Source: a bacterium
GTDB lineage: Bacteria > Vulcanimicrobiota > Vulcanimicrobiia > Vulcanimicrobiales > SCRA01
DNA length: 64,000 bases
Reading direction: 5' to 3'
NCBI GenBank assembly: GCA_004298675.1
Contig: SCRI01000086.1
Coordinates: 130,456-194,455, forward strand
Shown: positions 19,432 through 49,465 of the stretch, in pieces
How positions within the stretch are numbered: position 1 is the stretch's first letter
How the letters are laid out: each line of letters begins with the position of its first letter
Notes under the pieces: generated by a model
Database searches by the model: none
What the model saw: the letters and a program-made list of their open reading frames with translations, nothing else
What the model was told of the DNA's origin: nothing
Translations under genes and position numbers: made by a program

Positions 19432-20109
19432 ATGGATCTCTCGCTGCTCCGCAAGATCCCGCTGTTCTCCGGGTTTGACGACGAGCAGATCGCCGAAGTC
19501 GGAAAGCTGGTGCAGACGCGGCGCGTCCCCAAGCACCAGATCATCGTGTACGAAGGTGACCCCGGCGATTCGTTCTACGTGTTGCTCAAGGGTTCGGTTG
19601 CCGTCTCGCACATGACCGGCGAGGGTAAGGAGACCATCCTCTCCATCCTCAAAGAGGGCGACTTCTTCGGCGAGATGGCGGTGCTGGACTCGTCGCTGCG
19701 CTCCGCCTCCGTGAAGACGCTCTCCGACGTCGAAGTGGGGCTGGTCACACGCGCCGACTTCCTCGACCTGCTTGGCAAGAATCCGTCGATTGGCCGCTCG
19801 CTGGTGATCGCGCTCTCGGAGCGTCTGCGCGACGCCAACCAGCAGATCGCGGCCTCGGCCTACCAGGACATCCGCAAACGCCTGGCGGCGCTGTTGTTGA
19901 AACTGGCGGAGAAGTTCGGCGAGCAGACGCCCGATGGCACGCGCATCACACAGCGCCTGACCAACCAAGAGATGGCGAGCATGGTCGGCACCACGCGCGA
20001 GACCGTCAACCGCACCCTCAACAAGTTCTGGGACGAGCAGTTGATCGACATGCGCACGGCCTACATCGTCATCAAGGACCCCAGCGCGCTGGAGAAGCAG
20101 CTAGAGTAG
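19432..20109 (+). CDS. Crp/Fnr family transcriptional regulator
   Basis: 225 aa. It has a cNMP-binding domain (GDFFGEMAVLD, RSASV) and a C-terminal helix-turn-helix (TNQEMASMVGTTRETVNRTL). Confidence 0.85.
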   Translation: MDLSLLRKIPLFSGFDDEQIAEVGKLVQTRRVPKHQIIVYEGDPGDSFYVLLKGSVAVSHMTGEGKETILSILKEGDFFGEMAVLDSSLRSASVKTLSDVEVGLVTRADFLDLLGKNPSIGRSLVIALSERLRDANQQIAASAYQDIRKRLAALLLKLAEKFGEQTPDGTRITQRLTNQEMASMVGTTRETVNRTLNKFWDEQLIDMRTAYIVIKDPSALEKQLE

Positions 20110-41256: not shown

Positions 41257-41285
41257 TTGATTCTCGAAATATAGACTGATATAAT
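41257..41285 (+). promoter_or_regulatory. sigma-70-type promoter of the cas operon
   Basis: TTGATT (41257-41262), a 17-nt spacer, then consensus TATAAT (41280-41285), in an AT-rich stretch. A GAGGTGA ribosome-binding site lies ahead of the ATG at 41329. Confidence 0.55.
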
Positions 41286-41328
41286 CATTTGGAACATGGT
41301 TATACATTAGGCTGTTCAGAGGTGAAAT

Positions 41329-42546
41329 ATGCTTGATGAACTTCGAAATGCGGTTCAAGAAGCCAACGCCCTCTACTTTGTGACATTGTTGCGAGCGGAT
41401 GACGCTGGCGCTCGGCGTCCGGACGACACGACCGAGCCATCGATTGTCGCCCCGGCGACGTACGCGGCGATCCCTGGGGTCCCTAACAGCGGCGGCCCTC
41501 GCGTCAATCGCGTTCGGACGCACGACCGCGCTGAGGCCCGGACCGTCCTAAGCTCAACCGGTGCTGAAGCCCACCGCCATAAGCTTGCCCTCCGCGATGC
41601 CCTCGCGGAAGACCCGGCACTTCCCTTCCCACGTGTTCACGTCGAAGGCGCGGTCGATCTCAAGGGAAAGGGCAGGCGCCCATGGGCGCTCGACATACTC
41701 GACCTTCCGCACGGCGGCTCTGATACGTATCTGCGGTGGACGAGCGAGTGGAGTGAGTTTGACCCGTTTGTCATGGGGTTCGGCCAGCTCGATCTGCGCG
41801 ACGATGCTACGAGGATCTACCAGCGTTGCATCCACATGCTCCTCGTGGGCGGCTGGGCGTCGTACTATCGCGCTGCGGCTCGGATACCACGCACTCTAAG
41901 CTCTAGCATTGAAGGCATCACGATCCTGCCCAACGATACGGCCGACGACCCTCTCGTCACGTACAAAACGCAACGTAGCGATCCTCTCATCAAGGGCACC
42001 ATCGGTCTCCCTGAGGGAATGAAACCCAAAAAGAAAGACAAAGATAAGCTCAGCGCTGAAGGCCTTGGGGATATTCCGGGTAAGCACCCTACGTCGAAGG
42101 TGCTCATTGACTACGCGGTTGCCAAGACGACGATCAGCTTCGCTGGATTGCGCCAAATCCGCTTCGCTGAAAATGGCGGGCGTTCACACGAACGTGACCT
42201 CGCTGGCCGAACCGTTGCAGCTGCGCTAGGCTTATTGATGCACGAGCTTGTTCAGCGGCACGGCTATTACTTGCGCTCTGGCTGCTCCCTAGTGCCAATC
42301 TTAGGTAAAACGTCTCGAGTACTTGTCGGTGCCGACGGCCGGGAATCTGCATTACCGTGGGATCAGGATGCACGTCCGCGTTTGACCATCGCGAGGGAAC
42401 TCTACGTTGCCGCTGTGCAGGCCGCCGAGGGAACGGGTCTGCAATTCGACCCGGCGCGGACGTTGCATGCGGACCGTAACCTTAACGATGCCGTCTCCCA
42501 TTCTACGCGTTTCGAGCGCGTCGACGAAGATGAGGGGGTCGCATGA
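41329..42546 (+). CDS. cas7: Csb1/Cas7u-like protein (type I-G/I-U backbone subunit candidate)
   Basis: 405 aa. The call rests on position (first gene, immediately upstream of csb2) and loose similarity to the GSU0053 family pattern as I remember it (APATYA near the N-terminus; LRQIRF ... AAALGLL near the C-terminus). It needs an HMM check. Confidence 0.6.
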   Translation: MLDELRNAVQEANALYFVTLLRADDAGARRPDDTTEPSIVAPATYAAIPGVPNSGGPRVNRVRTHDRAEARTVLSSTGAEAHRHKLALRDALAEDPALPFPRVHVEGAVDLKGKGRRPWALDILDLPHGGSDTYLRWTSEWSEFDPFVMGFGQLDLRDDATRIYQRCIHMLLVGGWASYYRAAARIPRTLSSSIEGITILPNDTADDPLVTYKTQRSDPLIKGTIGLPEGMKPKKKDKDKLSAEGLGDIPGKHPTSKVLIDYAVAKTTISFAGLRQIRFAENGGRSHERDLAGRTVAAALGLLMHELVQRHGYYLRSGCSLVPILGKTSRVLVGADGRESALPWDQDARPRLTIARELYVAAVQAAEGTGLQFDPARTLHADRNLNDAVSHSTRFERVDEDEGVA

Positions 42547-43988
42547 CGACGATTGCCGCCCGTTTCCTCTCGAATCGATACGTAGCGCGGCGCTCCGACG
42601 ATCTGGCATCGGCGGAATGGCCCCCTAGCCCCGATCGCCTCTATCAGGCGCTCGTCAATGCGGCCTCACGGCTCGACGTGGAAAGAGGGAAGGCGCGGGC
42701 GTGGCTCGAGTGGCTATCTGGGCAACCGGCGCCGACAATCGTCGCTGTCCCGCAAGTACAGGAGCGCACAAGACACCGACGTTATGACCCCCGTAACGCC
42801 GAGACTCGGCGGCAGGTCGTCGAGCAGGGGCGCAAGCACGTCGTCACCTTGATCGACCAGCGTCAAGATCTGATCGATCTCGTCGATACGCCGCTCGCGC
42901 ACCCCCTCGTCATCTACCACTACGCAGACCGCGTTCCTGACGACCTGATTAGTGTCGCCGATCGCGTTGCCGCGAACGTAGGCTACCTAGGTACGAGCGA
43001 ATCCCCCGTACTGCTACGACTTGCCGAACCCATAGTCGGCACCGATCATCGCACCTTCGTTCCCGATGATGACGGGGACCTGATACTGCCGACGCCGTAT
43101 CCAAATCGCCTTGGTGACCTTGACGCGATGTTCGCTGATGCCTATCGGCCGGACCGCCCAGTCTGGGCACCATCGCTGCGTATCGACGCGCGGCGTACGC
43201 GCTATGCAATCGTCGAGAATCGCAAGTCTAGACCCCGAAGTGGCGATTACGAAGATCTCGTCGCACTTGCGTTCACCGTTGCGCCGAACGTCGATTCCCG
43301 GTTCTTCCCGGCCTTCGTCGCCGCGGTGCGTGCAGCGTACCTTCGCCGGCTTCCCGATGGGGTTCACGGGATGCTCTCAGGTCACGATCATACCGCGCCG
43401 GATCCGAGCTCTACGGCATACCCCGGTGCGCATGCTGCGTTTCTACCGCTTGCCGACGTCAACATGCCGTATGCGAGCTCGCGACTCCGTGGCATCGCCC
43501 TGGCTCTACCGTATGCAATGGGCTATGACCCCCGCCGACAAGCGATAGCCGCCTTCGATATCGATCACATCGTTGTCGCTGGCAGCAAGTACGAGCTGAC
43601 GCCGGTCATCCCTCTCGACCGCGAGTTCGAGGCAACCAGACTCGCACGTTACAGTCGCGTTGGCCGGACCTGGGCGACGCTGACGCCCATTCGTCTCTGG
43701 AAGATGCCCAATCGTAATGGGGGCGATGTTCCGGCGCTAGTCGCGGAGGCCATCCAGCAGACCGGCTACCCGGAACCGCGGTGGATCGAGATTGGTCCTG
43801 CGCCGTATGTGCCCGGCGCGCTCCACGTCACCGCTTACCGTCATCGATTCGAAAAGCCGTACTGGCTCGTTCACGCCCGATTCCAGTTTAGTGAGCCCGT
43901 GCGCGGACCGATGCTCGTTGGGCGAGGACGCTCGGTTGGTTTCGGCTTCTGCGGACTGGTGAACAGCGCAGGGATGCGGGTCGCGTGA
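42543..43988 (+). CDS. csb2: Csb2 (Cas5u-Cas6 fusion, type I-G/I-U)
   Basis: 481 aa. The N-terminal FLSNRYVARRSDDLASAEWPPSPDRLYQALVNAA matches the Csb2 signature (GRYHA ... EWPPxPxRLFxALV) as I remember it. The start forms an ATGA overlap with the upstream gene. Confidence 0.75.
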   Translation: MTTIAARFLSNRYVARRSDDLASAEWPPSPDRLYQALVNAASRLDVERGKARAWLEWLSGQPAPTIVAVPQVQERTRHRRYDPRNAETRRQVVEQGRKHVVTLIDQRQDLIDLVDTPLAHPLVIYHYADRVPDDLISVADRVAANVGYLGTSESPVLLRLAEPIVGTDHRTFVPDDDGDLILPTPYPNRLGDLDAMFADAYRPDRPVWAPSLRIDARRTRYAIVENRKSRPRSGDYEDLVALAFTVAPNVDSRFFPAFVAAVRAAYLRRLPDGVHGMLSGHDHTAPDPSSTAYPGAHAAFLPLADVNMPYASSRLRGIALALPYAMGYDPRRQAIAAFDIDHIVVAGSKYELTPVIPLDREFEATRLARYSRVGRTWATLTPIRLWKMPNRNGGDVPALVAEAIQQTGYPEPRWIEIGPAPYVPGALHVTAYRHRFEKPYWLVHARFQFSEPVRGPMLVGRGRSVGFGFCGLVNSAGMRVA

Positions 43989-46816
43989 GGTTCGAAGACT
44001 TCTTCAGCGCCGTGACCGGGAACACGCCGTTCGACTGGCAGCGTCGGCTTGCCGATCAGGTCACGCAGAACGATCCAGCACGCGTGAGCTGGCCAGACCT
44101 GATCGAGCTTCCTACTTCGGCAGGGAAGACGTCGATCCAACTCATCGCGGCGTATGCGCTCGCGGTGCACCCGAACGCACATCGTCGGATCGTCTACGTT
44201 ATCGACAGGCGTACCGTCGCCGACGATGCCTACGAGACCGCGCATATTCTCCGGGAACGGCTCAGGCGGGGCGATCCTGCCCTGGCCCCGTTTGCCGCTT
44301 CTCTTCGTTACAATGTCGGTCTGAAGTCCACGGAACCCTTGCTTGAGACACATCTCCTCCGCGGAGGTCTCGGAGAGCCGTTGGCGCGATTACGGTCCCC
44401 AATCGCGCCAACGATCCTCGTTGGAACAGTAGATCAGCTCGGGTCGCGACTTTTGTTTCGCGGTTACGGTGTCAGCGAACGCATGCGTCCGGTCGCGGCA
44501 GGACTACTCGCCTACGATACGCTCTGGATCGTCGATGAGGCACATCTTTCCCCGGCCTTCTTGGACACCCTACGTGCCGTGCGTGCATCGGTCTTGGCAT
44601 CTCCACTTCCGCACGATCGTCCACTGCACCTCATTGAGATGACTGCTACCCCGCGCAAGCGCGCCGGGCGAACCGTCTTTGCACTGGGGAGACCCGACGA
44701 TCGCATCGCTCAGAGAATCAGCTGCTCTAAGCCCGCGTTGATTCGTGATCCAATTCAGACAAGAGATCTGGTTGCTGCGTTCGCAGCGCTCGTCGAGGAA
44801 GCGCTGGGATCAAAATCCTTTCGGCGCCTCGGCGTGATCGTGAACCGAGTAGGACTGGCGCGCGAGATTTTCGATGCGCTTCGAAAGGGCGGGTCGAAAG
44901 ATAGCGCAGACTATCTCTTATTCATCGGTCCGATTCGTCCGTACGATCGTAAGTTGCTCTACGAGCGTTCTGCCGCCGTGTCTCTCAAGGCGCAGTCGCA
45001 CGAGCGACGCGCCCACCCGGTAGTCGCCATCTGCACGCAGACGATTGAGGTCGGAGCAGACATCGACTTTGATGCCTTATTCGTCCAAGCGGCACCCCTC
45101 GACGCGCTGCGTCAGCGCTTCGGTCGTCATAATCGGCTTGGCTCGAGCAACGGCACACTTGCGATTATTGTGCCAGAACTGCTCGAAAAAGTGGAGCCCA
45201 TCTACGGAGATGCCACGCAGCGGACGATACGGTGGTTATGTTCGGTCGCCCAGAGGGCGTCATCGGGGCAGAAGGTCGATTTCGGCATAGCCGCCATGGA
45301 CGATGTAGTGGGCCGACTCTCACCGCAAGAGCTTGAGGCGCTGTGCAGTTCGGGACCACTCGGCGAGCCGCTACATGTGCAACACGCGCGAAACCTCGCT
45401 CGCTCCACCAGCCCATGCATCGACGAGCCTGATGTCAGTATCTTCCTTCACGGAGAGCCTGCGCGTGCCGATGTCCAGCTAGTCTGGCGGGAACTCCCCA
45501 AGGACTACGATATCGGTAGGCTCTCGGAAGAGGTCAAGGATGATCTGTCGGCCGCACCACCTTGTGCTGGGGAAATGCTAAGTATCCCGGTCTATGCGGC
45601 GCGTTCCTTCCTTGAGGGTGAGAAGGCGGACGTCGCCGATGTTCCGGCAGAGTTGGAATCCACGCGTCAGGGCCGCAGGCACGGGGTTAAGGCAATCCGG
45701 TGGTCACCGGATAAGGACCAGATTGCCGCTGTTGAGCCTGATCAGATTCGACCCGGAGATACCCTCGTGTTACCCCTAAGTGCCGGGGGCTCCGATGAGT
45801 TCGGCTGGTCCCCTGATCGTATGGACTCTGTTTCAGACCTTTCCTTAGCGGCATACTTCGCGAAAAACGGAGACAGAGTTCGAGCCGCGCGAATGAGAGT
45901 CTTGGTTGCATTTGACCCTGAGGATGGTCGCACGGTCACCGAGCGCGTCGACGATGCTCTCACGAACAAGTGTGAAAGCGGTGACGGCTTGCTCGAGCGA
46001 GAGATCGCACGTGTACTGATGCAAGTGCCCAAGGACCAACGAACGATCCAGCTGATCCAAGCCGCAGGCGGCAACGAACATGCGTGGGTAACCTGGCGCG
46101 AGTCGGTGCGCGACGACGAAGATCCAAACGCCGACGCTAGTTCTTTCACGGTCCGCGTGGGGCTCACCGACCACTTAGAGCACGTTGCCGCCCGCGCACT
46201 CGATCTTGCGCAGCGCTGCGGGTTGCTCAAGGAGCTGTGTGAAAAGCTCTCTCTGGCTGGCCTTCTGCATGACCTCGGCAAGGCCGACGTTCGCTTCCAG
46301 ACGGTACTTCGCGGGGGCGATCTCATCGGTGCGCTTCGAGCCGAAGGCCAGACGGAGAACTTGCTGGCGAAGGGCCTTCGGCGATTTGCGGGAGGGGTCC
46401 AGCGTAGCGTTGCCGTTCCAATGTCTGAACGCTGGTTCCCTGGCATGCGCCACGAAGCGATCTCCGTGGCCATGGCTGGTGTCCAAGACCCGTTGGTCCG
46501 TCACCTCATCGGTAGTCATCACGGCTTTGGACGACCGACGTTCCCGACGATTGAGGATGCGGCGCCGCGTACAGTCCGTGCTCGAATCAACGGAGTCGCA
46601 TACGAAGCTTCGAGCGACCATCATCTCAATGCGAGCGGCTGGGATGAGCAATTTGCCGCGTTGCTCGACGATTACGGAATATGGGGCCTCGCGTATCTAG
46701 AGGCAATCTTACGCCTTGCCGACCATCGATGTTCTAGAGAAGAAGAGAGCGGGTCTGTGTTGGGGCTCCCAGAGCGGGATGGAGGAAACTCGTGCAGCTT
46801 GAGCTCGACGGTCTAG
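43985..46816 (+). CDS. cas3: Cas3 helicase-nuclease, type I-G/I-U architecture (helicase N-terminal, HD C-terminal)
   Basis: 943 aa. It has Walker A LPTSAGKTS, DEAH box IVDEAHL, helicase C region QTIEVGADIDFD and QRFGRHNR, and a C-terminal HD domain (HLEHV ... LLHDLGKADVRFQ ... HEAIS ... GSHHG). GTGA start overlap. Confidence 0.85.
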   Translation: MRFEDFFSAVTGNTPFDWQRRLADQVTQNDPARVSWPDLIELPTSAGKTSIQLIAAYALAVHPNAHRRIVYVIDRRTVADDAYETAHILRERLRRGDPALAPFAASLRYNVGLKSTEPLLETHLLRGGLGEPLARLRSPIAPTILVGTVDQLGSRLLFRGYGVSERMRPVAAGLLAYDTLWIVDEAHLSPAFLDTLRAVRASVLASPLPHDRPLHLIEMTATPRKRAGRTVFALGRPDDRIAQRISCSKPALIRDPIQTRDLVAAFAALVEEALGSKSFRRLGVIVNRVGLAREIFDALRKGGSKDSADYLLFIGPIRPYDRKLLYERSAAVSLKAQSHERRAHPVVAICTQTIEVGADIDFDALFVQAAPLDALRQRFGRHNRLGSSNGTLAIIVPELLEKVEPIYGDATQRTIRWLCSVAQRASSGQKVDFGIAAMDDVVGRLSPQELEALCSSGPLGEPLHVQHARNLARSTSPCIDEPDVSIFLHGEPARADVQLVWRELPKDYDIGRLSEEVKDDLSAAPPCAGEMLSIPVYAARSFLEGEKADVADVPAELESTRQGRRHGVKAIRWSPDKDQIAAVEPDQIRPGDTLVLPLSAGGSDEFGWSPDRMDSVSDLSLAAYFAKNGDRVRAARMRVLVAFDPEDGRTVTERVDDALTNKCESGDGLLEREIARVLMQVPKDQRTIQLIQAAGGNEHAWVTWRESVRDDEDPNADASSFTVRVGLTDHLEHVAARALDLAQRCGLLKELCEKLSLAGLLHDLGKADVRFQTVLRGGDLIGALRAEGQTENLLAKGLRRFAGGVQRSVAVPMSERWFPGMRHEAISVAMAGVQDPLVRHLIGSHHGFGRPTFPTIEDAAPRTVRARINGVAYEASSDHHLNASGWDEQFAALLDDYGIWGLAYLEAILRLADHRCSREEESGSVLGLPERDGGNSCSLSSTV

Positions 46817-47814
46817 ACGGCTCGAATCCTCTTGCATTCCTAGCGGCCCTTGGCGTCCTTGCGACCGTTGGAGGGAGACTCGCGTGGGTGGAGCACGGAG
46901 CGGCCTGGAGGCCGATAATCACCGAGTTGTCAAGCGATATAAGTATGGAGCAACTCGCCGACGTTCTCTATTCGCGGCTCCAGGCGGTTCCGTTCGCCTA
47001 CACACTCGCCCAACCAGGCGAAGCGCCATACGAAGATTTTGCGACGCGAAAGAAGGACCCCGCGACGACGACGGTTCGCCTTGTTGACGGCGAGACGGCC
47101 TTTCGTGCCGCAATCGAACGGGCGGCGATTGAGTGCCAAAATAGCGGCGATTGCGCCGAGCTCGAACGACTCGCGGCCCATACGTGTGTGCTCGGCGTAC
47201 GCAAGGGTAGCACGACGGACGTGCGGTCCGTCTCCGGGCCCGTGCGTTACCTTTCCAATATCCGTGCCATCGTGGAAGCGACGACACGTGAGGACATCGC
47301 ACGCGCGTTGTTCGAGCGTTGGCAGTATTATGCGGGCGAAGTAAAGCGTAAGAAAGAACGAGGTAGGATAAAGGGCCCAGGAAAGCGACCGAAGCTCGGC
47401 CTCGATCCCCGGGCCGTTGTCGAGAATGTTCCCGTTAACATCGCCGGCCTCGGTTCGATCTCCGAACTTGGCGCTGAACGACTCGCGCTCGAGGGATTGC
47501 GCGCCCTTCCCACTAGCATCCACGGTGGGAGGCTTGTTACCCGCGGTTACCATTATAGGCGGGGTAGGGCTTACGCATTTCGCTGGGTGCTCTCGCGAAG
47601 CCCTCGCTCGCTGCGAACGAGCTCGGAGCTTCTGGCGAGCGCGCCATTGGACTTTAGCCCCGATGGCCGAGATCAAGGGCGCGCAGCCCTGTTGTGCTGG
47701 ATGCGAGATCTCGGGGTTGCCGCGTTGTTCGAGTCCCGGCTCCGGTACTATGGGCAAGGGTACAAGCAGTTACTTCCGGCGGTAGCGATAGCGGAAGCGG
47801 GTTCGAGCGCTTAG
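46792..47814 (+). CDS. short Csx17/Cas8u-like protein (large-subunit candidate)
   Basis: 340 aa with a GTG start 25 nt inside the cas3 3' end. The N-terminal LDGLDGSNPLAFLAALGVLATV resembles the Csx17 N-terminal motif (GC..PLASYLKALGVLRL) as I remember it. I recognise nothing in the rest. Confidence 0.5.
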   Translation: MQLELDGLDGSNPLAFLAALGVLATVGGRLAWVEHGAAWRPIITELSSDISMEQLADVLYSRLQAVPFAYTLAQPGEAPYEDFATRKKDPATTTVRLVDGETAFRAAIERAAIECQNSGDCAELERLAAHTCVLGVRKGSTTDVRSVSGPVRYLSNIRAIVEATTREDIARALFERWQYYAGEVKRKKERGRIKGPGKRPKLGLDPRAVVENVPVNIAGLGSISELGAERLALEGLRALPTSIHGGRLVTRGYHYRRGRAYAFRWVLSRSPRSLRTSSELLASAPLDFSPDGRDQGRAALLCWMRDLGVAALFESRLRYYGQGYKQLLPAVAIAEAGSSA

Positions 47815-47981
47815 GTAATGGAGAGTATAACCGGAGGCGCTCGATCCCCGGTTTTGCGCGGAAAATCACTGGGATCCACCGTGAAATGCACCTTGAAAGC
47901 TGAAAAGCAAAGTCGCCAGGGAATACCCGCTCGAAAAATGAGGCTCATTTCGAGACGGCACCAGGCGGTTTAATACCTGCC
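47815..47981 (+). promoter_or_regulatory. CRISPR leader candidate
   Basis: A 167-nt AT-richer non-coding stretch between the csx17-like stop and the first, perfectly conserved repeat. Degenerate repeats lie at the far end of the array. It contains a 7-bp inverted repeat, CTCGAAA-N11-TTTCGAG (47930-47954). Confidence 0.6.
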
Positions 47982-49465
47982 GTTTCCGCGCCCACTAGGG
48001 CGCGGCTCTGTTGAAGGTTGGCGATAGAGATGATCTCGTCGCCGTTCGATTCGGTTTCCGCGCCCACTAGGGCGCGGCTCTGTTGAAGGCAATTGAAAGC
48101 GACGCATTTGGATTCGATGACCTATGTTTCCGCGCCCACTAGGGCGCGGCTCTGTTGAAGGTTATTCGATGGGGCTAACACGACGGAGATCCTTGGGTTT
48201 CCGCGCCCACTAGGGCGCGGCTCTGTTGAAGGTACGAAACTCGCGTCGTTGCACTCGAAACCGTCGAGTTTCCGCGCCCACTAGGGCGCGGCTCTGTTGA
48301 AGGGCGCTCGATTGGCGCGTACGTTCCGTGATTCTCGAGTTTCCGCGCCCACTAGGGCGCGGCTCTGTTGAAGGGATCATCTATGGCTGTGGGCTTCTTG
48401 TCCTCGGCTGAGTTTCCGCGCCCACTAGGGCGCGGCTCTGTTGAAGGCCTGCCCCGATCTTGCGGTCGAAGAAATGGCGGTCGTTTCCGCGCCCACTAGG
48501 GCGCGGCTCTGTTGAAGGCGCTGCTTGCTGCTGGCGTTATAGATAACATGTCGCGTTTCCGCGCCCACTAGGGCGCGGCTCTGTTGAAGGACATAGAGAC
48601 GATTACCGGTGGTTCCGTCAATGCGGTTTCCGCGCCCACTAGGGCGCGGCTCTGTTGAAGGCGGTCCAGATCGAGCGTTTCCCCGATCTTGACCATAATT
48701 TCCGCGCCCACTAGGGCGCGGCTCTGTTGAAGGTGGAAGTGCGGGCGAGTCTGGGTCACGGAAGGAGCAGTTTCCGCGCCCACTAGGGCGCGGCTCTGTT
48801 GAAGGATCCAATCGCGCTGATCCCCGGCCGCGACGAGGTCATGTTTCCGCGCCCACTAGGGCGCGGCTCTGTTGAAGGATCGCGCCCACCGGAACGACGT
48901 CGAGCGGAAAGGTCGTTTCCGCGCCCACTAGGGCGCGGCTCTGTTGAAGGTCGGAGATCCACAGGGCCTTGGTCCGTCCGTGTGCGTTTCCGCGTCCGCT
49001 AGGGCGCGGCTCTGTTGAAGGTTTGGCAGCTGGCGCATCAGCATCCCTGTCGCAACGTGTTTTCGCGCCCACTAGGGCGCGGCTCTGTTGAAGGAGGTGA
49101 TGGCCGAAGTTGAGCGTGCCGCTTCCGGTCGGTTTCCGCGTCCACTAGGGCGCGGCTCTGTTGAAGCGAGGAAGAGTTTCTCGCGCACATCGTTCTGCCG
49201 GACGAGTTTCCGCGTCTACTGGCGCGCGGTTCTGTAGAAGCCCGTACCCGTATACTAACCAATGGCTCACCATCACGTCCTGGTGTTTCCGCGTCTACTG
49301 GGACGCGGCTCTGTTGAAGCCCGGAAGCTCGGTGCGCGTTGTTCTTCAAGGTGATGGTTTCCTTGCCCGCTAGGGCGCGGCTCTGTTGAAGCGCTGTCAC
49401 GTCGGTCGACGCGTTGATGTCGCGGATGCATTTCCGCGTCCGCTGGAGCGCGGCTCTGTTGAAGG
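47982..49465 (+). CRISPR. CRISPR array, 21 repeats / 20 spacers
   Basis: The 36-nt repeat is GTTTCCGCGCCCACTAGGGCGCGGCTCTGTTGAAGG. Copies start at 47982, 48054, 48126, 48197, 48268, 48339, 48412, 48483, 48555, 48626, 48698, 48770, 48843, 48915, 48986, 49059, 49132, 49206, 49285, 49357 and 49430. Spacers are 35-38 nt, with one of 43 nt. Repeats 1-14 are identical except for a G-to-A first base in repeat 11. Repeats 15-21 carry 1-7 substitutions. The internal hairpin is CCGCGCCC-ACTA-GGGCGCGG. Confidence 0.95.

What the first reader, a model, noticed from the sequence alone, without database searches (positions are those of the whole stretch)
41257..49465. Interference-only, compact type I-G (I-U)-like CRISPR-Cas island without cas1/cas2/cas4
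Seen in the sequence:
- One near-consensus promoter (TTGATT-17-TATAAT) drives four overlapping ORFs (ATGA at 42543, GTGA at 43985, a 25-nt overlap at 46792).
- A 21-repeat array begins 167 nt after the last ORF.
- ORF2 has the EWPPSPDRLYQALV signature that I associate with Csb2 (Cas5u-Cas6).
- ORF3 has helicase motifs (PTSAGKT, VDEAH) followed by a C-terminal HD nuclease (LLHDLGK ... GSHHG). That is the I-G/I-U Cas3 domain order, not the usual N-terminal HD.
- ORF1 and ORF4 fit Csb1 and Csx17 only loosely.
- No ORF in any frame between 40.8 and 49.5 kb resembles Cas1, Cas2 or Cas4. The last repeat ends 75 nt before the next metabolic gene.

Established knowledge: canonical I-G loci (for example Geobacter sulfurreducens GSU0051-0058) carry a cas4-cas1 fusion and cas2 beside the array.

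Inference, three options: (a) a stand-alone effector module that depends on adaptation genes elsewhere in the genome; (b) a frozen array after recent loss of the adaptation module, although 14 identical leader-proximal repeats argue against long decay; or (c) an undescribed minimal I-G-like variant.
Basis: partly seen in the sequence, partly recalled or inferred. Interest (0 to 1): 0.8.

Follow-up and report, generated by a model that had tools for sequence, protein, structure and literature searches.

The report
Type I-G CRISPR locus lacking adaptation genes
This is an intact type I-G CRISPR-Cas interference operon with a 21-repeat array but no spacer-acquisition genes; both the gene layout and the missing genes have been described before, so it is a fairly ordinary member of a known system.

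Summary
One promoter-like site precedes four overlapping ORFs and a 21-repeat CRISPR array. No Cas1, Cas2 or Cas4 is detectable anywhere in the 64-kb window, not even as a fragment.

The genes are cas7g (csb1), csb2 (cas5-cas6), cas3g (helicase then C-terminal HD) and a short large subunit. ORF4 is not Csx17. It belongs to NCBIfam NF049934 ("type I-G Cas3-extension family") and PADLOC "Cas8g, effector_LS".

That family is large:
- 2,290 50%-identity clusters.
- At least 423 species genomes.
- Sometimes fused to the Cas3g C-terminus.

In 47 of 90 loci compared, cas4g/cas1g-cas2 lies in the fetched flanks, usually between cas8g and the array. Nine loci with at least 4 kb of flank on both sides lack it.

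The window belongs to a deep Cas3g branch. In all five lineages of that branch the array starts about 170 nt after cas8g, with no adaptation gene seen. Three near-identical relatives (99.7-99.8% DNA identity) share no spacers, so spacers turn over in this branch.

A 2024 myxobacteria survey already describes csb1-csb2-cas3-cas8u1, 36-nt repeats ending TTGAAGC, and I-G loci without adaptation modules.

Verdict: a new member of a known kind, most likely served by adaptation genes elsewhere. Interest is low to moderate.

The parts
41257..41285 (+). Sigma-70-like promoter TTGATT-17-TATAAT (extended TG), 44 nt upstream of cas7g
   Evidence: the only such site in 40.5-50.5 kb, 10 of 12 matches. A consensus match only; not enriched over shuffles. 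Sequence read, with an RBS-like GAGGTG before the ATG at 41329.
41329..42546 (+). cas7g / csb1 (405 aa), divergent backbone subunit
   Evidence: Pfam PF09617 Cas_GSU0053 at 2.3e-9, 37.9 bits against a cut-off of 25. PADLOC Cas7g at 4.9e-10. Clusters by BLAST with the Csb1 genes of 69 related loci. No NCBIfam hit at E <= 0.01.
42543..43988 (+). csb2 (481 aa), Cas5-Cas6 fusion and presumed pre-crRNA endonuclease
   Evidence: TIGR02165 at 2.5e-57, 195 bits against a cut-off of 45, full length. PADLOC Cas56g at 1.4e-85. The conserved C-terminal His444 and the Gly-rich loop G460-G468 are retained.
43985..46816 (+). cas3g (943 aa): N-terminal SF2 helicase, C-terminal HD nuclease
   Evidence: TIGR02621 at 4.3e-204, 681 bits against a cut-off of 400. 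Helicase motif I G47-K48-T49, DEAH 184-187, motif VI Q377-R381, and HD residues H730, H762-D763, K766 and H823 are all retained against a 77-sequence family alignment.
46792..47814 (+). Short cas8g (340 aa), the 'Cas3-extension'/cas8u1-type large subunit; not Csx17
   Evidence: NF049934 adjac_Cas3_IG at 3.9e-33, 115 bits against a cut-off of 65. PADLOC PDLC01514 Cas8g, CAS-I-U effector_LS, at 1.2e-32. The N-terminus aligns with 14 homologues. The family has 2,290 clusters, some fused to the Cas3g C-terminus. AF2 model pTM 0.75 with no PDB fold match.
47815..47981 (+). 167-nt leader with motifs shared with relatives (GGCGCTCGA, TTGAAA, CCGCTCGAAA)
   Evidence: Alignment with the leaders of L003 and L008, whose ORF4 proteins are 52-56% identical to the window's, shows conserved blocks. 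The function of these blocks is inferred, not shown.
47982..49465 (+). CRISPR array: 21 repeats of 36 nt (GTTTCCGCGCCCACTAGGGCGCGGCTCTGTTGAAGG) and 20 unique spacers; the last 7 repeats are degenerate
   Evidence: The repeat folds as an 8-bp hairpin with a 12-nt 3' tail, -17.9 kcal/mol, z = -2.7. The stem covaries with the repeats of relatives. No Rfam CRISPR-DR family reaches its gathering score.

Best explanation
The locus is a complete type I-G interference unit of the csb1-csb2-cas3g-short-cas8g architecture.

Proposed mechanism:
1. A single promoter transcribes the four translationally coupled genes.
2. The array is transcribed from its 167-nt leader.
3. The Cas6-like C-terminal domain of Csb2 cuts the pre-crRNA next to the 8-bp repeat hairpin and stays bound.
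4. Several Cas7g subunits coat the guide.
5. The short Cas8g, which in some relatives is literally the C-terminal extension of Cas3g, tethers Cas3g to the complex.
6. Cas3g unwinds and degrades matching DNA with its helicase and C-terminal HD nuclease.

The unit carries no adaptation genes of its own. It belongs to a deep sub-lineage of I-G in which the array follows cas8g directly. New spacers are most likely inserted by a Cas4g/Cas1g-Cas2 module encoded elsewhere in the cell (a second I-G locus or a mobile element).

Shown here: gene identities, intact catalytic motifs, array anatomy, absence of adaptation genes in 64 kb, and the recurring architecture.

Inferred: expression, crRNA processing, interference and trans-adaptation.
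For: - Family assignments are far above curated cut-offs.
- Cas3g catalytic motifs and the conserved C-terminal features of Csb2 are intact.
- The repeat hairpin has compensatory stem changes across relatives.
- The array is polarised. Thirteen of the 14 leader-proximal repeats are identical and the seven distal ones are degenerate. Repeats 17-20 end in C, the family consensus TTGAAGC, whereas repeats 1-16 end in G. This is what leader-end copying of a mutated first repeat would give.
- All 20 spacers are unique.
- No Cas1, Cas2 or Cas4, or fragment of them, is found in the window.
- Five independent lineages of the same Cas3g branch (the window, L003-7, L008-9, L090-92, L093) put the array about 170-180 nt after cas8g and show no adaptation gene.
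- L003, L004 and L005 have cas-plus-leader DNA 99.7-99.8% identical but share none of their 7, 11 or more, and 5 or more spacers. Acquisition is therefore active in this branch.
- Leader motifs are conserved across the branch.
- The literature reports csb1-csb2-cas3-cas8u1 I-G loci that lack the adaptation module, and I-G arrays scattered around genomes (PMC11237760).
- Biochemistry of Csb2, Cas7, Cas8g and Cas3 in I-G comes from PMC9638904.
Against: - The rest of the source genome is not available, so no trans-acting cas1/cas2 has been seen.
- The relatives' contigs are short, with 0.3-4.5 kb upstream of csb1. An upstream adaptation module, as in L019, L062 and L076, cannot be excluded for them.
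- No protospacer match was found in phage or plasmid collections, so there is no direct sign of recent immunity and no PAM.
- Csb1 and Csb2 differ from the wider family at many otherwise conserved positions.
- The promoter is a consensus match only.
Confidence: 0.55

Rival explanations
1. Frozen memory. The adaptation module was lost and no Cas1-Cas2 exists anywhere in this genome. The effector still works but uses a fixed set of 20 spacers.
For: No adaptation gene in 64 kb. Adaptation-less I-G loci recur in other branches: 9 of 56 loci with decidable flanks. L044 and L050 keep weak Cas2-like remnants, which shows that such deletions do happen. No spacer matches known phages or plasmids.
Against: There is no remnant of cas4/cas1/cas2 here. 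The same compact layout is shared by five lineages whose ORF4 proteins are only 52-58% identical to the window's, so it is old and maintained rather than a recent loss. Near-identical relatives have entirely different arrays. All four genes are intact.
Confidence: 0.3
2. A decaying or silent remnant acquired horizontally. The genes are intact by chance or only recently inactivated, and the locus does nothing.
For: GC content is 60% against 67% in the flanks, which indicates foreign origin. Csb1 is very divergent, with no NCBIfam hit. The distal repeats are degenerate. No targets were found.
Against: The four long ORFs have no frameshifts and use coupled overlapping starts and stops. Catalytic residues are kept. 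Thirteen of the 14 leader-proximal repeats are identical. The Csb1 divergence belongs to a whole branch that keeps the same gene set.
Confidence: 0.08
3. A repurposed I-G system with a job other than adaptive defence, for example competition between mobile elements or gene regulation. Such a system would not need adaptation genes, as with CRISPR-associated transposons or type IV systems.
For: Adaptation genes are missing across the branch. IS-family genes lie next to two relatives: DDE_Tnp_1 in L008 and IstB_IS21 in L090.
Against: Cas3g with an intact HD nuclease and helicase is present, unlike in transposon-associated systems. No transposition genes flank the window locus; its flanks are sugar-acid metabolism genes. 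No spacer matches the window itself above the shuffled background. The arrays are long and variable, as in defence systems.
Confidence: 0.05

Closest known systems
Type I-G CRISPR-Cas, csb1-csb2-cas3-cas8u1 arrangement (described for myxobacteria, PMC11237760)
   Same: Same four-gene order. Repeats are 36 nt with a hairpin and a ...TTGAAG(C) tail. That survey also reports loci lacking the adaptation module. The same order is seen in most of the 80 GTDB genome loci fetched here.
   Different: The window and its closest relatives form a separate deep Cas3g branch. Their repeat tail is CTCTGTTGAAG rather than CCYCATTGAAGC. No WYL regulator lies upstream. The array follows cas8g directly in every member seen. 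That the paper's 'cas8u1' is the same family as ORF4 is inferred from gene order, not tested.
Canonical type I-G of Geobacter sulfurreducens / Thioalkalivibrio sulfidiphilus (cas3-cas8g1/csx17-cas7-csb2-cas4/cas1-cas2; PMC9638904)
   Same: Csb2 Cas5-Cas6 fusion, Cas7g backbone, and Cas3g with a C-terminal HD that is a stable part of the effector. There is no separate Cas11 gene.
   Different: The gene order differs. The large subunit here is a roughly 300-aa protein of another family, not the larger Csx17 (the largest Cas8g variant according to PMC9638904). The cas4/cas1 fusion and cas2 are absent.
Bifidobacterium animalis type I-G with Csb3 as large subunit (bioRxiv 10.1101/2022.08.19.504415)
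   Same: A Csb1-Csb2 core with a non-Csx17 large subunit. This shows that the large subunit of I-G is interchangeable.
   Different: No relationship between ORF4 and Csb3 was tested here. The B. animalis system has its own adaptation genes (from my own knowledge, not checked).
Adaptation-less CRISPR-Cas loci in general (many type III and IV loci, Tn7-associated I-F3/I-B)
   Same: An effector plus array without cas1/cas2, presumed to rely on spacer acquisition in trans.
   Different: Transposon-associated type I systems have lost Cas3, whereas this locus keeps an intact Cas3g. No transposon or plasmid genes flank it.

Membership tests
Type I-G (I-U) CRISPR-Cas | Csb2, a Cas5-Cas6 fusion and the signature gene of the subtype | tested here: met
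   TIGR02165 at 2.5e-57, 195 bits against a cut-off of 45, covering residues 1-470 of 481. PADLOC Cas56g at 1.4e-85.
Type I-G (I-U) CRISPR-Cas | Cas3g: helicase followed by a C-terminal HD nuclease | tested here: met
   TIGR02621 at 4.3e-204. Helicase motifs lie at residues 47-381 and HD motifs at 730-824, all conserved.
Type I-G (I-U) CRISPR-Cas | Csb1 / Cas7g backbone subunit | tested here: met
   Pfam PF09617 at 37.9 bits against a cut-off of 25. PADLOC Cas7g at 4.9e-10. BLAST cluster with the Csb1 genes of 69 loci. It is divergent, with no NCBIfam hit at E <= 0.01.
Type I-G (I-U) CRISPR-Cas | A Cas8g/Cas8u large subunit | tested here: met
   The short variant: NF049934 at 115 bits against a cut-off of 65, and PADLOC Cas8g effector_LS at 1.2e-32. 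No Csx17 (TIGR04113) hit.
Type I-G (I-U) CRISPR-Cas | Cas4-Cas1 fusion and Cas2 next to the array | tested here: not met
   Absent from the whole 64-kb window by PADLOC and by subtype-specific HMMs and tblastn. This concerns the adaptation module, not the effector, so the effector module remains I-G.
Type I-G (I-U) CRISPR-Cas | 36-37-nt hairpin repeat with a TTGAAG(C)-type 3' tail | tested here: met
   The 36-nt repeat has an 8-bp stem and the tail CTCTGTTGAAGG, with older copies ending GAAGC. It matches the repeat pattern of 40 related I-G loci and the 'G-type' repeat of PMC11237760.
   No Csx17 model is hit at E <= 0.01 in NCBIfam or E <= 1 in PADLOC. ORF4 is 340 aa and belongs to NF049934.
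CRISPR-associated transposon / other repurposed type I | Loss of Cas3 and linkage to tnsABC/tniQ | tested here: not met
   Cas3g is intact. The flanks encode metabolic enzymes and transporters.

The most novel reading that the evidence does not exclude
The window represents an old, stable sub-lineage of type I-G that has no adaptation genes of its own and always places the array directly after the short cas8g. It nevertheless keeps acquiring spacers, which implies obligate dependence on a Cas4/Cas1-Cas2 module from another locus or a mobile element. Far less likely, it would imply a spacer-uptake route that does not use its own Cas1-Cas2 at all.
Probability: 0.3. Interest if true: 0.45.

Novelty: new member of a known kind. 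Interest (0 to 1): 0.25.

Why it matters
It matters modestly.

- It corrects the annotation of the fourth gene: a short Cas8g / Cas3-extension protein, not Csx17.
- It shows that the supposedly minimal layout is a widespread, already catalogued I-G architecture.
- The one point worth following up is that a whole deep branch of these systems seems to live without cis adaptation genes while still turning over spacers. If confirmed in complete genomes, this branch would be a clean natural case for studying how type I effectors share adaptation machinery in trans.
- It would also offer a compact four-gene Cas3 system of about 6.5 kb for engineering.

Tried and rejected
- Exact-protein look-ups of ORF1 and ORF3 found no record, so the source genome could not be identified or searched for cas1/cas2.
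- Both metagenome scans returned nothing: the ORF4 sub-clade alignment, and the repeat pattern TTTCCGC-N12-GCGGCTCTGTTRAAG. That collection evidently lacks the newer JGI samples that hold the relatives.
- BLAST of the array against 50,697 phage and 72,556 plasmid records gave one chance-level hit (E = 0.4) and none, so no protospacers or PAM.
- Self-targeting: the best spacer-to-window identity is 25 of 36-38 positions, against 23-24 for shuffled spacers, so it is rejected. This includes the 20/24 similarity of spacer 1 to csb2.
- ORF4 fold: the AF2 model (pTM 0.75, mean pLDDT 70.5) has no Foldseek PDB match at E < 0.7. A profile search against PDB sequences found nothing. The afdb50 library was unavailable. 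Its role as large subunit therefore rests on family annotation, gene position and Cas3 fusions.
- Csb1 and Csb2 have no PDB sequence relatives at E <= 0.01.
- No Rfam family reaches its gathering score in 40.8-49.7 kb.
- No convincing direct or inverted repeats bound the island.
- Megablast of the downstream flank against plasmids gave only about 75% identity to proteobacterial megaplasmid genes. The host is probably a proteobacterium but is not identified.
- The PADLOC TIR hit elsewhere in the window could not be located with the two Pfam calls spent on it.


Full report
**1. What is in the sequence**

Four ORFs lie on the + strand: 41329-42546, 42543-43988, 43985-46816 and 46792-47814. They overlap by 4, 4 and 25 nt. 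They follow the only sigma-70-like site in the 10-kb region, TTGATT-17-TATAAT at 41257-41285. One such site is no more than chance would give (shuffle mean 2.3), so it is a plausible promoter and not a proven one.

After a gap of 167 nt comes an array of 21 direct repeats of 36 nt at 47982-49465, with 20 unique spacers of 35-43 nt. Thirteen of the first 14 repeats are identical; repeat 11 has G1A. The last seven carry one to six substitutions each. The island has 60-63% G+C against 66-68% on both sides.

**2. Gene identities**

| ORF | Assignment | Evidence |
|---|---|---|
| ORF2 | Csb2 (Cas5-Cas6) | TIGR02165, 2.5e-57, full length |
| ORF3 | Cas3g | TIGR02621, 4.3e-204 |
| ORF1 | Divergent Cas7g/Csb1 | Pfam PF09617 2.3e-9, above cut-off; PADLOC Cas7g 4.9e-10; no NCBIfam hit |
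| ORF4 | Short Cas8g | NF049934 "type I-G CRISPR-associated protein, Cas3-extension family", 3.9e-33; PADLOC Cas8g "CAS-I-U effector_LS", 1.2e-32 |

In Cas3g the helicase motifs sit at residues 47-381 and the HD motifs at 730-824. All are conserved relative to a 77-sequence family alignment.

ORF4 is not Csx17. Its GTG start aligns exactly with the N-termini of 14 homologues. Its extra length (340 aa against about 305) comes from internal insertions that are poorly modelled.

The effector set is therefore complete: Cas7, Cas5-6, a large subunit and Cas3.

**3. Are adaptation genes really absent?**

Every six-frame ORF of 75 aa or more in the whole 64-kb window was scanned against PADLOC. That is 146 ORFs of at least 150 aa and 150 ORFs of 75-149 aa. 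No Cas1, Cas2 or Cas4 model was hit.

I then built subtype-specific HMMs from 48 Cas4g/Cas1g and 44 Cas2 proteins found next to homologous loci. Their identity was checked with NF049935 (3.8e-221) and TIGR01573. I searched all stop-to-stop segments of at least 30 aa. The best E-values were 1.2 and 0.25. The tblastn run gave only short 29-residue Cas2 matches at E = 0.002-0.006 at 1296-1382, 40 kb from the locus. Controls gave 1e-46 to 1e-259. There is not even a pseudogene fragment.

The flanks encode sugar-acid metabolism and transport genes:
- an ABC substrate-binding protein,
- a malate/lactate dehydrogenase,
- an RraA-like aldolase,
- an SDR,
- a dihydroxy-acid dehydratase,
- a galactarate dehydratase.

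**4. How common is this layout?**

The ORF4 family has 2,290 representatives of 50%-identity clusters at E <= 1e-3, and 869 at E <= 1e-30. Most are about 300-320 aa. About one in ten of the top hits is the C-terminal part of a 1,296-1,414-aa protein. In the fetched loci the corresponding long ORFs cluster with Cas3g, which explains NCBI's name for the family.

A scan of one genome per GTDB species found at least 423 loci across Planctomycetota, Acidobacteriota, Verrucomicrobiota, Pseudomonadota, Latescibacterota and others.

In the 80 loci kept, the typical order is: (WYL regulator) - csb1 - csb2 - cas3g - short cas8g - cas4g/cas1g - cas2 - array. Of the 90 loci compared:
- 47 carry the adaptation genes.
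- 9, the window included, lack them despite at least 4 kb of flank on both sides.
- 34 are too short to tell.

Repeats throughout are 36-37 nt. They have a GC-rich hairpin whose stem covaries, and a ...CATTGAAGC tail.

[quoted passage not shown] It also reports adaptation modules that are variable or lacking, 36-bp repeats ending TTGAAGC, and I-G arrays scattered in genomes (PMC11237760). The I-G structural paper likewise notes variable large subunits (PMC9638904). The layout is therefore known.

**5. The window's own branch**

In a neighbour-joining tree of Cas3g, the window groups with metagenomic loci L003-L009 on a deep branch separate from all 68 other sequences in the tree. L090-93 are assigned to this branch from their ORF4 identity and shared layout; they were fetched after the tree was built.

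Five independent lineages of this branch have ORF4 proteins 52-58% identical to the window's: the window, L003-7, L008-9, L090-92 and L093. All have csb1-csb2-cas3g-cas8g followed after about 170-180 nt by the array. None gives a Cas4/Cas1 or Cas2 hit.

Their repeats share TTTCCGC-stem/loop-GCGGCTCYGTTRAAG, with compensatory stem changes. Their leaders share short blocks. Two relatives sit beside IS genes.

The compact layout is thus inherited within the branch, not a recent accident in this genome. Elsewhere in the family, adaptation-less loci L044 and L050 retain weak Cas2-like remnants (E = 2e-3 and 7e-6), as expected for recent deletions. The window has none.

**6. Is the array alive?**

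There are three indirect arguments.

(i) The array is polarised. Repeats are homogeneous at the leader end and degenerate at the far end. The old repeats 17-20 end in C, the family consensus, while repeats 1-16 end in G. This fits repeated copying of a mutated first repeat during leader-end integration.

(ii) All spacers are unique.

(iii) Contigs L003, L004 and L005 come from different samples. They have 99.7-99.8% identical cas-plus-leader DNA and encode the identical Cas8g, yet share none of their 7, 11 or more, and 5 or more spacers. L006 and L007 repeat L004's first spacers. Spacer turnover therefore occurs in this branch.

The caveat is that these contigs reach at most 270 nt upstream of csb1, so an upstream adaptation module in that population is not excluded. 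For the window itself the rest of the genome is unknown. No spacer matches phage or plasmid records or the window itself above background.

**7. Mechanism**

The biochemistry of the Thioalkalivibrio system provides the model (PMC9638904):
- Csb2's Cas6-like domain processes the pre-crRNA and stays on the 3' hairpin.
- Cas3 is a stable subunit held through Cas8g.

The same scheme is the best model here. The short Cas8g acts as the Cas3 tether, a role supported by the natural Cas3g-Cas8g fusions and by its fixed position after cas3g. Its predicted fold (pTM 0.75) matches nothing solved, so PAM reading by this protein is conjecture.

Spacer uptake is most likely supplied in trans (confidence about 0.55). 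A frozen array is the main rival (about 0.3).

**8. Verdict**

The fourth gene was mis-assigned, and the layout is not undescribed.

It is a new member of a known kind. The one mildly interesting feature is membership of a branch that appears to do without cis adaptation genes.

Noticed in passing
L001:2283-10915 (ENA ERZ18242361 NODE_408) and L002: A related I-G module has a 402-aa YhcG/DUF1016 nuclease-family gene inserted between csb2 and cas3g. It has no array downstream. Only a two-repeat mini-array lies upstream in reverse orientation (L001:938-1041). No cas1/cas2 is found within 10 kb.
   Followed up: partly
L022, L035, L036, L051, L056, L060, L062, L073, L078, L080, L089; P0024, P0038 and others: In roughly one in ten family members the short Cas8g is fused to the C-terminus of Cas3g, giving proteins of 1,296-1,440 aa. 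The large subunit and the nuclease-helicase are then a single polypeptide.
   Followed up: partly
L044:10913-11230 and L050:2099-2434: Two adaptation-less I-G loci from other branches keep weak Cas2-like fragments (E = 2e-3 and 7e-6). These look like scars of recent deletion of the adaptation module.
   Followed up: no
L012, L029, L041, L059, L063, L083 (mostly Vicinamibacterales MAGs): A sub-group has the order cas3g-cas8g-csb1-csb2 and an enlarged Csb2 of about 780-830 aa. No array or adaptation genes appear in the fetched flanks (about 5-7 kb on each side for most).
   Followed up: no
window, location not determined: PADLOC scans of all window ORFs gave a TIR/PycTIR effector hit (3.7e-15) and weaker hits to PycC cyclase, CARF and HerA models. 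Multi-member hits to mad3/mad8 may be generic matches. Two Pfam calls on 20 candidate ORFs did not find the TIR protein.
   Followed up: partly
window:14440-19378: A type II secretion / type IV pilus-like cluster: two T2SSE ATPases, a pseudopilin with an N-methylation motif, and a prepilin peptidase. It is followed by a Crp-family regulator at 19432-20109.
   Followed up: no
window:47982-49465: The last base of the repeat is G in repeats 1-16 and 21 but C in repeats 17-20. C is the family consensus. Position 10 is T in repeats 15, 17, 18, 19 and 21. This is a record of repeat evolution along the array.
   Followed up: yes
window:47320-47390 (ORF4 residues about 180-200): The window's Cas8g has a lysine/arginine-rich insertion (EVKRKKERGRIKGPGKR) that is absent from all 14 homologues and modelled with pLDDT below 50.
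   Followed up: no
L008:50-631 and L090:9-374: IS-family genes (DDE_Tnp_1; IstB_IS21) lie just upstream of two members of the window's branch. This hints that the compact module travels with mobile DNA.
   Followed up: no
many loci, e.g. L010:2724, L015:2063, L043:1567, L075:1749: An HTH protein of about 320-385 aa is encoded upstream of csb1 in 14 of the related loci and is absent from the window. I take it to be a WYL-type regulator from reading the sequence; the only family hit was a weak biotin-repressor HTH match.
   Followed up: no
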